From positions 737,533-801,532 of the forward strand of contig NJBG01000001.1 of assembly GCA_005222965.1 (NCBI GenBank): a stretch of 64,000 bases of DNA, in the 5' to 3' direction. Positions 51,001 through 57,000 of the stretch are shown piece after piece. The stretch's first letter is position 1. Each line of letters starts with the position of its first letter. The position numbers are program-made. Origin of the DNA: Candidatus Woesearchaeota archaeon B3_Woes (lineage in GTDB: Archaea > Nanobdellota > Nanobdellia > Woesearchaeales > B3-WOES).

Positions 51001-54000
51001 CTTACTGGAAAAGGCCAAACAATCTGTATAATTGACAGCGGTGTTAATTATTCTCATTCAGATTTAGGAGGATGCTACGGCAACAATACAAATTTTTCAT
51101 GTAAAATCATTGGAGGGATTGATTATTGTTCAGATGATGTTACTTGTAATCCTGGTTTTGAAGATGATAATCCAATGGATGTAAATGGGCATGGAACCCA
51201 TGTATCTGGAATTGTTGCCGCAAACGGCTCAATAAAAGGCGTTGCCCCAGAAGCAAAAATAATTATGATTAAGGCAAGCAACTCAAGCGGAACTTTTTGG
51301 GATGATGATTTAATAGCAGCAATTGAATGGTGTACTGACAATTCATCAACCTTTAATATATCAGTTATAAGTATGAGTTTAGGTGGAGGAGCTGAATCTA
51401 GTTATTGTAATGGAGATTCTCTGGCACCTTATATAAATGCAGCTGTTGCAAAAAACATATCAGTTGTAGTAGCAACAGGAAATGAGTATAACACCACACA
51501 TATAAGTGGTCCTGCTTGTGTTCAAAATGCTACACCAGTTGGCTCAACAACAAAATCAGATACAATGTCATCTTTCTCAAACCGTAATAATATAACACAA
51601 CTAGTTGCACCAGGAGGAACTTTATCTAATTCTGGAGCATGTTCTCCAGGAACTATGGACTCAAATAGAATATGTTCAACATGGAAGGACGGAAGCTATT
51701 TAGCTATTTCAGGAACATCTATGGCAACACCCCATGTAGCAGGAGCAGTAGCTTTACTACAACAATTTTACAAACTACAAAATAAACCACCATTAACAAC
51801 AGAACAAATTGAAACCACCCTAAATAATACAGGCACAATTATTAATGATTCAGGAGGATCTGGACTTATTTTTAGAAGAATAAACACATATGCTGCAATA
51901 CAATCTCTTGACGAAACACCACCATCAATAACCTTTGTATCTCCTACACCTATAAACTATACAAACACAACAAACGGATCTATGGAAATAAATGTCTCAA
52001 TCATAGATCAAATCAATAATATTAGTTCTTGCTGGTTTGAATGGAACTACACAACTAACATAACTATGAATCAATCAAGTAGTGGAACATCTGTAACTTG
52101 TTATCTGAATAAATCATTTACAGAACAAGGTGTTTTTGATTATAGAGTATATGCAAACGATTCTCAAAACAATGTAAATGTTTCTGAAACAAGACAAATA
52201 AATGTTAGCAATGCTCAACCAAATGTAACCATCAATTCTCCTATTGACAATTATAACTCTTCTTCAAACACAATAATATTTAATTGTACAGCAAGTGATG
52301 CTCTTAATCTAACCAATATAACATTGTATCATAATTCAAGCGGATGGACAGCAAACACAACAAACACATCTGGAATAAATACAAACTACTTATTCACTCA
52401 AAATTTTACAGAAGGAATTTATATATGGAACTGTTATGCCTGCGATAATTATAATAGTTGCAGTTTTGCAACTTCTAACAGAACATTTACAATTGATACA
52501 ACTTTCCCTTATTTTAATCCATTACCAACAAACCAGGAAATTAATTACAGCCAACAATTCGGATACGATATAAATGCCACAGATAACAATGCCTTTACCT
52601 ATTCTGTTAATGATACTACAAACTTTGCAATTAATCAAAGCGGTTATATTACAAACAACACTTTATTAGATGTAATAACATACAGTTTAAATATAACAAT
52701 AAATGATACAGCAGGAAATGAAAACTCAACTATAATATCAATTACAGTTAAATTAAACAAAACATCTAATATAACAGCAAACACATCAACAGATATTGAT
52801 TTATCTCAGGCAGATTCAAACATAACATTATTCCTTTCAAATAATGTTACAACAACAATTACAGTATCTAAAAAAGCACCAAACGCTTCAGGAACAACAT
52901 CTAGCCTAAGTTCATTAAAAGGAATCAACATAACAGTAAACTCAGCCACAAGCGGAAACCTAACTTGGGCACTAATTAAAATTTATTATAATTCTACTGA
53001 AATAACCTCTGCAAATATTGACGAATCTACTCTAAAAATATATTATTATAACAGTACAGCAGGAGACTGGCAACTTGAATCAGATCAAGGAGTAGATACA
53101 ATAAATAATTATGTGTGGGCAAATGTAACTCATTTTAGTTTATTTGGAGCATTTGGAAGCGCACCATCCGACCCACCATGTAGTGGATGTGGTGGAAGTG
53201 GAGGAGGTGGTGGAGGAAGCTCTATCACTACTGAAACAATAGTTTTAACTAGATATGGAATAACGCATACAGAATTAAGAAGAAACACACAACTTATTTT
53301 TACTTCTAAAGACCAAGAATACACTCTAACTATCAAAAAAGTAGAGAGAGATAAAGTTGAATTTGTATTTACTATAGATCCAATTAAATTTACCTTGAAT
53401 ATAGAAGAAGAAAAAACAATTGATCTTAATTCAGATGAAAAAATCTATATTAAACTAGAAAACATAAAAAACAGAAAAGCAGATATTACACTAAGAAAGA
53501 TTGTTAAAATACAACTATTACCTATAATAAATCTCACAAAACCTAAAGAAGAAACAAAAACAGAAGAATCACTAATCACAACAGAAGAAATAACAGAACA
53601 AATTGTAGAACCAGAAAAATCAGTTAAAAAACAAATAATCGGCATGGCTATAACAACAATTATTGTAGTTATAGGCCTTGCGTCCTTCTTCTTTTTCAAG
53701 AAATCTAAGAAAAATAAATTCAGATTACCATAAAAATAAAAAAGCTTTTTAAAACAACTAATCTTCTCTAAAACTATGCTACTTAAAGAAATAAAAAAAG
53801 ATATTTCTAAAGAAATTTATGAAGTCCTAAAAAAAGATATAAAAGAACTAAGACCTAGCCAATCTAAATCAATCAAAGCAGGCTTATTTCAAAATAAAAA
53901 CCTATTAGTCTGTACACCAACTGCTTCTGGAAAGACGCTTATAGCAGAATTAGCACTAACCAACAACATAAAAAAAGGAAAAGCAATCTATATTGTACCA

Positions 54001-57000
54001 CTAAAAGCACTGGCAAATGAAAAATTTAAGGATTTTAAAAAGAGATATGATCATTTGTTTAATATTGCTCTATCAATAGGAAACCTGGATTCAGCAGACC
54101 CCTACTTAGAAAATTATGATTTAATAATATGCACTGCTGAAAAACTCGATTCATTAATACGGCATCATTGCCCTTGGTTAAATAATGTTAAAACAGTTAT
54201 TGTTGATGAAGTTCATTTATTAAATGACATAGGAAGAGGACCAACTCTAGAAATCTTATTAACAATATTAAAAAAAATACTATCAGACATACAAATTATT
54301 GCACTATCCGCTACAATAGGAAACCCAAAAGAACTTGCAGAATGGCTAGACGCAGAATTAATAATAGATAATTGGAGACCTGTTAAACTAAAAAAAGGAG
54401 TATACCACAAAGGAAAAATAGAATTTAAAGAGTAAACTATAAATATATAAATAGCTTTTTAAAATGAAATGGAAGCAGAAGATTACTTTAAAGGAACTAA
54501 AGTTTATGTATGGCGTAAGGATTTTGCTATAATTAAATCCAACAAAACTAATCCTAATGCTTTTGCAAATATTGTTGATAAAAAAGAAACAACAGTTATT
54601 ATTGAAGAAGGCAAATATAATAATGAAGATATTATAGAAATAGAAAAAGGTTGGAAAATACTAACATTTGATATCGAACTTCCATTTTCTCTAACTGATT
54701 TTCTAGCAAAAATTTCAAATACTTTAGCACAAGAAAAAATAAGTATATTCGTTGTTTCAACTTATTCTACTGATCATATTTTAATTAAAAAACAAGATTT
54801 ACAAAAGGCTGAAGAAAAACTTAAAAATCTTGGTTTTATAATAGAAGAAAAATAAGTTACAGTCCGAAACTATCAGAGAACTCTTTAATTCTTTCAAATT
54901 CTAATAAGAACTCATAACCTTTATCAGTTATTGCAAATACTTTTTTATCTTTTTTCATCTGCTCTTCAACCATCTCTTTTTCAATTAACTCAGTAAGATA
55001 AACTTTCATTTTAGAATGAGATAAATTGGATTTGTACAACAAATGAGTTGGCTTTATTTGGCCGCCTTTATTTTTTATTGAATTAAGCATGTCATTGATG
55101 ATTTCTAATTTTCCTCTTCTTTTTTCACTCATTTTACAAGCTTAAAATTATTTGGTTTTTTTCTAAGTACAGATATAAAAGGCACAAGCAGAAATAAAAA
55201 CCCTAATAATTGAATCACCTCAGCTATTACATAAACTATTTCAAAATATATTACAAACACAAAAAAAGCATGGCTTATTAACAAAATAGCAAAAGCAATT
55301 GCAACCTTTTTTGCATTTTTAGATTTAACCTCTTTAACATTCTTAAAATAAGACAGAGTAATAAGACTAAGCATAGCAAATGTAGTAACATAAAATAATT
55401 GGTAATGAATAACACCCAACCAAGTAGCCACCAAAACAAAATACAGTAACATAGCAATAACTCTTTTATTATCCCATGTAAGCTTTGATACTATGAAAAA
55501 CAGTATCATAAATCCAAGAAGTGTCAAAAATATATACAATAAGAAAGCAACACCATTTATTTTACTTAAAGTTAAAGCACTAAATGTTGTTTGTACTGCC
55601 TGTCCTATTACAGATTCTCTAATTGGAGGAGTATATATAGCAAAAGTACCAGCTACTTTTGCAGCAAACGCCAAAGTTAATGAAAGAAAAGCAGTACTAA
55701 AATACAAATATCTATGCTCAGAAGTTAATTTATAACATTTATAGCTGTAATATACCAATAAACCACATACAACTATTCCAATTAACTCAATAATAGAATC
55801 AAACCCATAAAACCAGCTTGGGCTGAACACAAAAGATGGTAAACCATAAGGTAACATGTGTAGAATATGTAAAAATCCCTTTATAAATTTTGTGTATTTT
55901 TGTTCTTTACTGACCCTTCATAATGGTTAATAAAGACCTATGTTATACTATACATAGAAAACACAACCCTCCGTGTGTTTGCTTTTAATTTTAGATAACA
56001 AAGAGCAAGTCAACCCAACACCTCCGGCTTGTTCTTTTAGTTCTTTTTTAAGCTTCTTTTAATTCTAAACTTCTTTTATTTGAAAAAATTTATAAAGCAA
56101 TTAATATACTTTAAAATTATGGTGGGGGATAATACAGAAAATTTAGAGCAAATTTTTAACTTACTAAATCAAGCTGGGAAATTAAAAACAACATTAAGAT
56201 TTAGTGAACTAGATGAGAATTCTTTAAGAGATTCTAGTGCTGAACATTCCTGGAGACTCGCTTTAATGGTTTTTGTTGTTGCAGATAAATTGAAATTAGC
56301 TATAAATGTTGAGCATGCATTAAAGCTTGCCATAATCCATGATATTGCAGAATCTATAACAGGAGATGTTGATTCAAGGCTTGTGTATGATGGTAAAATT
56401 ACAAAAGAGGAAAAAAAGAAAGCAGAAGAAAAAGCAATAAAAGAGATTAGTAAACTCTTCTATGGAAAAGAAATCTTTGATTTATGGAAAGAATATGAAG
56501 AAAGCTCTACAAAAGAATCAAGGTATATAAAAGCCCTTGATAAAATTGAAACATTAATCCATCTTATTGAAATGGGTATGAAAATAGGCCCAAAAGTTTA
56601 TGATATTCCTGAAATGATAACTCACTATGCTGATAAATCAGTTAATAACTTTCCAGAACTTACAAGCATGTTAAAAATAGTTAAAAATAAACTAAAGAAA
56701 GAATTTCAAAAAAACAACATCCCTTGGAAAGAAGAATATGATAAATTAATTTAAGTCATCCTATATAAACTAATTATCAATAATTTTACTAACCTGATCT
56801 TCTTTAACAACTCTTATTATATTATCAACAAACCCTTCTATTTTACTTTCATGACTTACAATAATTGTCTGATTTAGATTTAATTGATCTATTACATCCC
56901 TAACCCTGTCTAACTGTTCTGTTGAAAAACCATCAGTAGGCTCATCTAATATGATTAAATCCTTCATTTTAATATTCGTTATTAAGTCATTAATAACTTT

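What a model noticed while it worked through the whole genome (the two positions that open the first line are those of the whole stretch)
53776..54435. Hel308 helicase split between RecA1 and RecA2 into two unlinked genes, conserved across the order
Hel308 is encoded as two genes 93 kb apart. A 219-aa RecA1 piece lies at 791308-791967. A 516-aa piece holding RecA2, the winged helix and domain 4 lies at 696474-698024. The same split, with unlinked pieces, is found in nearly all sampled relatives, so it is an old and maintained split gene and not a pseudogene.
Evidence so far: The NCBIfam Hel308 model PRK02362 is matched at positions 9-219 by the N piece (275.9 bits) and at 222-710 by the C piece (463.4 bits). 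The N piece is a stand-alone frame of 161-281 aa in 28 of 30 relatives. The C piece is a 519-566-aa frame in 5 of 5. The pieces are 37, 275 and 332 kb apart in G017, G023 and G026, and on different contigs in G018 and G029. No intact Hel308 was seen in the Pfam survey of this genome.
(Added by a program. Inside this text positions count along the whole contig: contig position 737,533 is position 1 of the stretch shown here. "Call 12" and the like, gene names such as g00115 and contig names such as C1 are that model's own, and its searches are not shown. The text may have been shortened before it was handed on; [...] marks where a part breaks off. The agent that wrote the report below was given it as the finding of a first reader that could run no searches.)

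Follow-up and report, generated by a model that had tools for sequence, protein, structure and literature searches.

The report
Hel308 helicase in two unlinked genes
In this small archaeal genome and its whole order, the DNA repair helicase Hel308 is encoded as two well-conserved genes far apart on the chromosome, cut exactly between the two halves of its motor, so the ATP-burning site must form between two separate proteins.

Summary
Window 53776-54435 (+) encodes a 219-aa stand-alone RecA1 lobe of Hel308. It carries motifs I, Ia, II (DEVH) and III. The remaining 516 aa (RecA2, winged helix, domain 4, HhH) lie 93 kb away on the same contig.

The two pieces cover the Hel308 profile end to end: 9-219 and 215-710. 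In this genome they are the only DEAD-without-Helicase_C frame and the only Helicase_C-without-DEAD frame.

In 121 genomes from 121 families of the order, the N piece was found in 110, the C piece in 114 and both in 106. They were never adjacent (29-423 kb apart in the 10 same-contig cases). No one-frame Hel308 was found in 401 genomes of the order. At least 54 genomes of other orders in the class keep an intact gene.

On a tree the split forms make one clade (support 99). Catalytic residues are invariant. Each piece has its own TATA-like element at about -28. A complex model passes (0.84 against 0.00 for controls), but likeness to solved single-chain Hel308 could explain that.

Best reading: an old, maintained gene fission giving a two-subunit Hel308. 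Assembly and activity are untested. The split Nanoarchaeum "large helicase-related protein" is most likely Lhr, a different family. I found no prior report.

The parts
53776..54435 (+). Hel308 N piece: stand-alone RecA1 lobe, 219 aa, with motif I (CTPTASGKT), Ia, II (DEVH) and III (SAT). It ends a few residues after the conserved ...WRPVKL..G.Y..G.IEF strand.
   Evidence: Its partner, the 516-aa C piece (RecA2, winged helix, domain 4, HhH), lies outside the window at contig positions 696474-698024 (+), 93 kb upstream. It cannot be given in window coordinates.
53744..53753 (+). TATA-box-like element GCTTTTTAAA, 23-32 nt upstream of the ATG. Likely the N piece's own promoter (short or no leader).
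   Evidence: Sequence read. The exact motif is not enriched in the window. Across relatives, TATA-like hexamers pile up in the -30..-26 bin: 19 hits in 29 N loci and 34 hits in 27 C loci, against at most 7 in any other bin. Transcription was not observed.

Best explanation
An ancient gene fission cut Hel308 in the loop between its two RecA-like motor lobes. The two halves are now separate transcription units at unlinked places in the genome.

The N protein (RecA1) supplies the Walker A and DEVH ATP-binding and hydrolysis motifs. The C protein supplies RecA2 with the motif VI arginines, the winged helix, the ratchet domain 4 and the HhH domain.

Inferred mechanism: the two proteins associate without a covalent link. 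Contacts would be the C-terminal beta-hairpin of N pairing with a strand of RecA2, and the winged helix packing on RecA1. This rebuilds the ring and the ATP site between two chains, giving an ordinary 3'-5' Hel308 helicase for stalled-fork and recombination work.

Shown here: complementary coverage, unique reciprocal orphans, order-wide conservation, one origin on the tree, invariant catalytic residues and a promoter-like element for each piece. Inferred, not shown: expression, heterodimer formation and activity.
For: Coverage:
- The two pieces cover the profile end to end (9-219 and 215-710) with nothing lost.
- N aligns to Hjm 2zj2 residues 12-215 and C to 228-711.

Orphan test in the own genome:
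- Full-length DEAD hits fall in frames of 402, 231 (N), 978 and 738 aa.
- Helicase_C hits fall in frames of 402, 738, 978 and 530 (C) aa.
- N and C are therefore each other's only possible partners.

Order survey of 121 genomes, one per family:
- N was found in 110 (51-81% identity, frames 161-350 aa, all ending at query 207-219 except one at 174).
- C was found in 114 (41-69% identity). Both were found in 106.
- None of the 106 is adjacent. The 10 same-contig cases are 29-423 kb apart.
- All 80 named public loci have stand-alone N frames of 219-293 aa.

No intact form in the order: 0 of 401 genomes (136 families) at E<=1e-150. Intact genes in other orders score 1e-174 to 1e-238 in frames of 677-933 aa, in at least 54 of 132 genomes.

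Tree of the C region: 31 split rows, 10 intact from sister orders and 54 intact from the database. The split forms make one clade, SH-aLRT 99, with no intact form inside.

Selection:
- Motif I, II and III residues are invariant in 28 N pieces. Motif IV, IVa, V and VI residues are invariant in 29 C pieces.
- dN is 0.14-0.34 with dS saturated in four same-genus or same-family pairs.
- Stand-alone N pieces host inteins in motifs I and II and still end at the split site (P0061, P0010).

Promoter: a TATA-like peak at -30..-26 for both pieces.

Complex model: ipSAE 0.84, best of 3 controls 0.00. That mark was reached by 116 of 157 solved complexes and 2 of 215 mismatched pairs. The runs share at least 94% of contacts and the partner's pLDDT is 88. 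Solved single-chain Hel308 structures exist, so this pass may reflect likeness to them and not evidence about these two proteins.
Against: - Only one piece was found in 12 of 121 genomes. N only: G010, G024, G084, G096. C only: G019, G037, G048, G053, G058, G103, G106, G117.
- Neither piece was found in 3 genomes (G006, G054, G111).
- A re-scan with the family model left 5 of 5 re-checked genomes one-pieced. G106 and G096 among them are rated 100% complete, in about 20 contigs each. So either obligate pairing is not absolute or the assemblies have gaps.
- There is no expression evidence: no RNA run holds the stretch.
- Neither piece reaches the curated NCBIfam cut-off (275.9 and 463.4 against 887). 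Intact sister-order proteins also miss it (577-791 bits).
- In the 401-genome scan only two candidates per genome were scored.
- The complex score cannot separate real binding from memory of solved structures.
Confidence: 0.8

Rival explanations
1. The two pieces no longer work together. After the fission each took on a function of its own. For example, the C piece could be a DNA-binding or ratchet protein without ATPase activity, and the N piece an ATP-binding module for another partner.
For: Only one piece was found in 12 of 121 genomes, including two rated 100% complete. There is no linkage and no conserved shared neighbourhood.
Against: The residues that make sense only in a joint ATP site are invariant on both sides: Walker A and DEVH in N, the motif VI arginines in C. 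No other orphan lobe exists in the genome to pair with. The pieces co-occur in 106 of 121 genomes.
Confidence: 0.1
2. The halves are rejoined after expression, by a split intein (protein trans-splicing) or by RNA trans-splicing as with split tRNAs, so the cell holds a one-chain Hel308.
For: Inteins are common in this gene in these lineages. RNA halves are known to be joined in Nanoarchaeum (PMC3655853, passages).
Against: N ends and C begins with ordinary Hel308 residues. There is no room for intein halves: 219 + 516 aa against about 710-720 aa intact. The 3' flank of N and the 5' flank of C share no complementarity: the longest is 7 nt, and 193 of 200 shuffles did as well.
Confidence: 0.03
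3. The pieces are decaying pseudogene remnants or an assembly artefact.
For: Some apparent splits outside the order are artefacts. The frames of G147 and G159 run off contig ends, and G217 has a run of N.
Against: In this order both frames are complete with start and stop inside contigs, including single-contig genomes. The same cut is seen in over 100 families. Identity is 51-81% with invariant catalytic motifs while dS is saturated.
Confidence: 0.02

Closest known systems
Archaeal Hel308 / Hjm (solved: P. furiosus 2zj2, A. fulgidus 2p6r, S. solfataricus 2va8)
   Same: All helicase motifs and all five domains are present, in the same order. N matches 2zj2 at E 1e-61 and C at E 1e-93.
   Different: It is encoded and made as two polypeptides cut in the RecA1-RecA2 linker, from unlinked genes. 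All solved and characterised Hel308 proteins that I know of are single chains (recalled).
Split protein genes of Nanoarchaeum equitans and Nst1 (reverse gyrase, 'large helicase-related protein' and others; PMC3655853 Table 1, passages read)
   Same: These are also reduced DPANN genomes with unlinked halves that need post-translational assembly, and some of the splits are shared by related lineages.
   Different: The family and the cut site differ. The published helicase name is that of Lhr. In this class an Lhr-type helicase is seen cut at profile position about 611, after the motor core, in G130, which has no Hel308 match. I did not match any handle to a named organism. The Nanoarchaeum helicase is cut at different sites in the two species. 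The Hel308 cut here is the same across more than 100 families.
Phage Aeh1 ribonucleotide reductase NrdA, fragmented by a mobile element (PMC3045599; only the search listing and start of the abstract were seen)
   Same: A conserved enzyme gene is cut in two and the function is rebuilt from two polypeptides. Here a LAGLIDADG-like ORF sits just upstream of the C piece in 5 genomes.
   Different: There the halves stay adjacent around the inserted gene. Here they are dispersed, and the endonuclease link is only a lead.
Hel308 split at the RecA2/winged-helix border (found here in other orders of the class: G212, G238, G127)
   Same: Same protein, same class of organisms, complete separate frames.
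   Different: The cut is at profile position about 385, so both motor lobes stay in one chain. These are sporadic cases, not order-wide.

Membership tests
Hel308 (Ski2-like SF2 helicase) | Helicase motifs I, Ia, II (DExH), III in RecA1 and IV, IVa, V, VI in RecA2 | tested here: met
   The corresponding columns are invariant in 28 N pieces and 29 C pieces. The motif names are assigned from my knowledge of SF2 helicases.
Hel308 (Ski2-like SF2 helicase) | Domain order RecA1 - RecA2 - winged helix - ratchet domain 4 - HhH | tested here: met
   Pfam DEAD in N. Helicase_C, HTH_61, Helicase_dom4_arc and HHH_5 in C. Together they cover profile 9-710 of NF002654.
Hel308 (Ski2-like SF2 helicase) | Score above the curated NCBIfam equivalog cut-off (887 bits for NF002654) | tested here: not met
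   275.9 and 463.4 bits. Intact one-frame proteins of sister orders also score below it (577-791 bits), so the cut-off does not separate this class's Hel308 from non-members.
Hel308 (Ski2-like SF2 helicase) | One polypeptide carrying both motor lobes | tested here: not met
   Two frames, 93 kb apart.
Hel308 (Ski2-like SF2 helicase) | DNA-dependent ATPase and 3'-5' helicase activity | not testable with these tools
   Needs biochemistry. The complex model passes (0.84 against 0.00), but that can be memory of solved structures.
Maintained split gene (gene fission) | Complementary, non-overlapping pieces of a protein that is one gene in relatives | tested here: met
   Junction alignments with 10 intact sister-order proteins. 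Intact in at least 54 of 132 genomes of other orders.
Maintained split gene (gene fission) | Both pieces conserved under purifying selection and co-occurring | tested here: met
   Both pieces in 106 of 121 genomes. Catalytic residues invariant. dN 0.14-0.34 with dS saturated. The 12 one-piece genomes are the exceptions.
Maintained split gene (gene fission) | Single origin | tested here: met
   One change on the C-region tree, with split clade support of 99. This was a quick search with SH-aLRT support only. The root is not fixed.
Lhr ('large helicase-related protein', the split Nanoarchaeum helicase) | Best match to the Lhr-type model NF010338 | tested here: not met
   N matches NF010338 at only 63.5 bits, against 275.9 for Hel308. 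The genome has a separate intact Lhr at 1167.6 bits.

The most novel reading that the evidence does not exclude
The fission is more than a tolerated accident. It would be a natural split-motor design in which the ATPase site exists only when two separately made subunits meet, so helicase activity can be set by subunit supply or by assembly on DNA. It may have begun with a mobile element landing in the linker. A LAGLIDADG endonuclease-like gene lies just upstream of the C piece in 5 families, often with a tRNA gene close by. One relative still has N and C only 1.66 kb apart with foreign genes between them.
Probability: 0.15. Interest if true: 0.8.

Novelty: new variant of a known kind. Interest (0 to 1): 0.62.

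Why it matters
Superfamily-2 helicases are textbook single-chain motors whose ATP site sits between two tethered RecA lobes. Here an entire, very diverse archaeal order has kept the two lobes on separate, unlinked genes since its origin: 136 families sampled and no intact copy seen.

- It offers a natural system for asking what the covalent tether contributes to coupling ATP hydrolysis to translocation.
- It is a clean shared derived character for the order that public records mostly label Woesearchaeota.
- It warns annotators: both halves are currently named only 'DEAD/DEAH box helicase' or 'helicase', so pathway surveys that look for a full-length protein will score Hel308 as absent.
- Fission surveys that require neighbouring pieces would miss it. 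PMC11237513 speaks of 'split syntenic sets' (passages).

Tried and rejected
- Expression: the look-up of sequencing runs listed no RNA holder, and the DNA holders had small shares only.
- RNA trans-splicing: no complementary flanks.
- Conserved neighbours: none of the own-genome neighbours of N (S8-like protease, ACT, HTH_45, membrane protein, HD_3) or of C (LonB) recur beside the pieces in 29 + 80 N loci or 29 C loci at E<=1e-5. The exception is the LAGLIDADG-like ORF.
- The exact promoter word GCTTTTTAAA is not enriched in the window: 18 matches against 27.8 expected.
- dN/dS could not be computed because dS is saturated.
- Apparent 220-site splits outside the order (G147, G159, G217) are contig-end or N-run artefacts.
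- The placing of locus L123 at the base of the split clade was not upheld with more rows: it falls in an unresolved polytomy.
- Rfam at gathering score found no tRNA in L051, L036 or L058, although L036 shows an intron-bearing tRNA by eye.
- Literature: searches found no paper describing a split Hel308.
- Closed or unavailable: Waters et al. 2003 is not held.
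Full report
**The observation.** The window holds an ATG-started ORF at 53776..54435 (+) of 219 aa. It matches the NCBIfam Hel308 model NF002654/PRK02362 at 275.9 bits, protein 11-219 against profile 9-219 of 739. Three other Hel308 models come next. Pfam sees only a DEAD domain and no Helicase_C. A scan of the whole 1.02-Mb, 4-contig genome with the same model gives three places:
- the N piece;
- a second place at contig 696456-697976 (+), 464.6 bits, profile 215-710, in a 530-aa open frame;
- a weak hit in a long frame that turns out to be an intact Lhr-type helicase (NF010338, 1167.6 bits).

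The second place is a 516-aa ORF with Helicase_C, HTH_61 (winged helix), Helicase_dom4_arc and HHH_5.

**Where the cut lies.** Against solved structures, N aligns to P. furiosus Hjm (2zj2) residues 12-215 and C to residues 228-711. I aligned 30 N pieces and 30 C pieces from different families with 10 intact proteins from sister orders.
- All N pieces stop within a few residues after the conserved strand ...WRPV.L..G.Y..G.(I/V)EF.
- The C pieces start 8-12 residues before the conserved ...dp.iNlalDT...KQ element.
- The intact proteins run through with a 10-20-residue loop.

Nothing is lost and nothing is added. There is no room for split-intein halves.

**Are the two pieces partners?** In the own genome, full-length DEAD matches fall in frames of 402, 231 (N), 978 and 738 aa. 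Helicase_C matches fall in frames of 402, 738, 978 and 530 (C) aa. N and C are therefore the only reciprocal orphans. A complex model with my own alignments gave ipSAE 0.84 in three runs, against 0.00 for the best of three controls.
- That mark was reached by 116 of 157 solved complexes and 2 of 215 mismatched pairs.
- The runs share at least 94% of contacts and the partner's pLDDT is 88.
- The tightest predicted contacts are N 205-210 with C 166-171, and N 159-163 and 187-190 with C 224-232.

Single-chain Hel308 structures are solved, so this pass may only reflect that likeness.

**Spread in relatives.** I surveyed 121 genomes of the order, each from a different family.
- The N piece was found in 110 (E<=1e-30, 51-81% identity, frames 161-350 aa).
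- The C piece was found in 114 (E<=1e-25, 41-69% identity).
- Both were found in 106, N only in 4, C only in 8 and neither in 3.
- In 10 genomes both lie on one contig, 29, 37, 54, 92, 93, 170, 275, 307, 332 and 423 kb apart. In the other 96 they are on different contigs. None is adjacent.
- One of the 121 (G112) is flagged unpublished. It has both pieces.
- A wider scan of 401 genomes (136 families, 258 genera) found no match at E<=1e-150. Only two candidates per genome were scored in that scan.

Intact genes elsewhere in the class score 1e-174 to 1e-238. At least 54 of the 132 genomes from other orders have a one-frame Hel308 of 677-933 aa, and 63 of 151 genomes have no match at E<=1e-40.

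Named public records holding close N-piece relatives are mostly titled Candidatus Woesearchaeota, Nanoarchaeota or Nanoarchaeia MAGs. All 80 kept loci have stand-alone N frames of 219-293 aa. That the order is GTDB's Woesearchaeales is my inference from those titles.

**One origin.** A search of longer proteins found intact 700-726-aa forms at 57-65% identity to N. Some also carry the NCBI label Candidatus Woesearchaeota, so that label covers both states. I built a tree of the C region with 31 split rows, 10 sister-order intact rows and 54 intact database rows. I kept the top 60 hits of 690-770 aa and dropped the intein-bearing or truncated ones. The split rows form one clade (SH-aLRT 99) with no intact row inside. 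Thirteen intact proteins are the nearest outgroup (the smaller tree agrees).

**Selection and expression signals.**
- Motif I, Ia, II and III residues are invariant in 28 N pieces. Motif IV, IVa, V and VI residues are invariant in 29 C pieces.
- Same-genus and same-family pairs give dN of 0.14-0.34 with synonymous sites saturated.
- Two database proteins are stand-alone N pieces carrying inteins in motif I, or in motifs I and II, and still end at the split site.
- TATA-like hexamers pile up 26-30 nt before the start codon of both genes across relatives: 19 hits in 29 N loci and 34 hits in 27 C loci, with other bins at 7 or fewer. This fits separate promoters and short or absent leaders.
- No RNA data could be found.

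**What speaks against.**
- Twelve genomes show only one piece. A re-scan of five of them with the family model did not find the other, including two rated 100% complete.
- Neither piece reaches the curated cut-off, though intact relatives do not either.
- Assembly and activity are untested.

**The Nanoarchaeum question.** Table 1 of PMC3655853 (passages read) lists a split 'large helicase-related protein', cut at different sites in the two nanoarchaea. That is the written-out name of Lhr (my knowledge). In this class, G130 is a 0.5-Mb single-contig genome of another order. It has no Hel308 match at E<=1e-40. It does have an Lhr-type helicase in two unlinked frames covering profile 5-610 and 612-870. 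This is a different family, and its cut lies behind the motor core. I matched no handle to a named organism.

**Prior reports.** Nine literature searches found no description of a split Hel308. I also read passages of:
- PMC10946056, on Ski2-like helicases in Archaea;
- PMC8301817, on Lhr diversity;
- PMC8407392 and PMC5994134;
- PMC11237513, on fusion and fission families in Archaea. The word 'helicase' does not occur in its main text, and it works with syntenic split sets.

What I say about the ring architecture of solved Hel308 proteins and about reconstituted Nanoarchaeum reverse gyrase is recalled, not read here.

**Origin leads.**
- In one public locus (L123) N and C lie on the same strand only 1.66 kb apart, with two opposite-strand genes between them.
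- A LAGLIDADG-like ORF sits within 2 kb upstream of the C piece in 5 genomes of 5 families, and never beside an N piece.
- A tRNA gene, or a tRNA-like T-arm, lies upstream of the C piece in 5 of 30 loci and of 0 of 30 N loci.

These observations fit a mobile-element insertion into the linker. They fit equally well an endonuclease gene tied to the tRNA gene.

**Verdict.** This is a real, old and maintained fission of Hel308 between its two motor lobes, shared by a whole order. It most likely works as a two-subunit helicase. It is a new variant of known kinds (split genes of DPANN archaea; Hel308).

Noticed in passing
L123 3001-6657 (public record CAZGZA010000017.1): The only locus seen where N (3001-3681 +) and C (from 5347 +) are close: 1.66 kb apart on the same strand. 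Two opposite-strand genes lie between them, a 141-aa and a 391-aa membrane-like ORF. This could be a relic of the original insertion or a secondary rearrangement. Its place in the tree is unresolved.
   Followed up: partly
own contig 695313-696092 (-), = L001 355-1137; outside the window: A free-standing LAGLIDADG-like ORF of 260 aa (Pfam LAGLIDADG_3 at 20.4 bits, below the 22.5 cut-off) lies 382 nt upstream of the C piece, facing away from it. Relatives of it lie within 2 kb upstream of the C piece in G078, G115, G045 and G106 too. None lies beside an N piece. 47 of 121 genomes have a match anywhere.
   Followed up: partly
L001 1333-1408; L036 1345-1465: tRNA-Ile(GAU) sits directly upstream of the C piece in the own genome. 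In G076 a tRNA with the same anticodon loop and what look like introns sits in the same place, and both ARAGORN and Rfam at gathering score missed it. T-arm-like hairpins lie upstream of 5 of 30 C pieces and 0 of 30 N pieces. tRNA-Arg(GCG) lies just downstream of the C piece in 4 loci.
   Followed up: partly
G072, G079, G093, G087 (order); G160, G204 (other orders); P0061, P0010: Inteins interrupt this gene often. They occur at C-piece position about 120 (motif V; frames of 1024-1056 aa), at profile position 340 in intact genes (frames of 1233 and 1246 aa), and in motifs I and II of stand-alone N pieces.
   Followed up: partly
G212, G238, G127 (other orders); G103, G073, G037 (this order): There is a second cut site at the RecA2/winged-helix border (profile about 385; C-piece position about 155-190). 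Complete separate frames are seen in G212 (25 kb apart) and G238. Within the order this would give three-piece Hel308 genes: adjacent in G103, and at contig ends in G073 and G037, so those two are unsure.
   Followed up: partly
G130:C1:886-2679 (+) and 356596-357366 (-): An Lhr-type helicase in two unlinked frames (profile 5-610 and 612-870) in a 0.5-Mb genome of another order that has no Hel308 match. In family f143 the Lhr-type matches cover only profile positions about 18-410, in frames of about 390 aa.
   Followed up: no
G096:C2:28527-29849, G084:C89, G043:C45, G028:C1:316936 and others: Many genomes of the order carry a further intact Ski2-like helicase of about 640-690 aa that matches the Hel308 profile only over positions about 28-510 (E 1e-46 to 1e-60). 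The window's own genome has none.
   Followed up: no
window 50596-53733 (+): A 1045-aa ORF just upstream of the N piece. It has subtilisin-like catalytic motifs (by eye), many N-x-S/T sites, a Gly-rich stretch and a C-terminal hydrophobic anchor. It looks like a surface protease and was not scanned.
   Followed up: no
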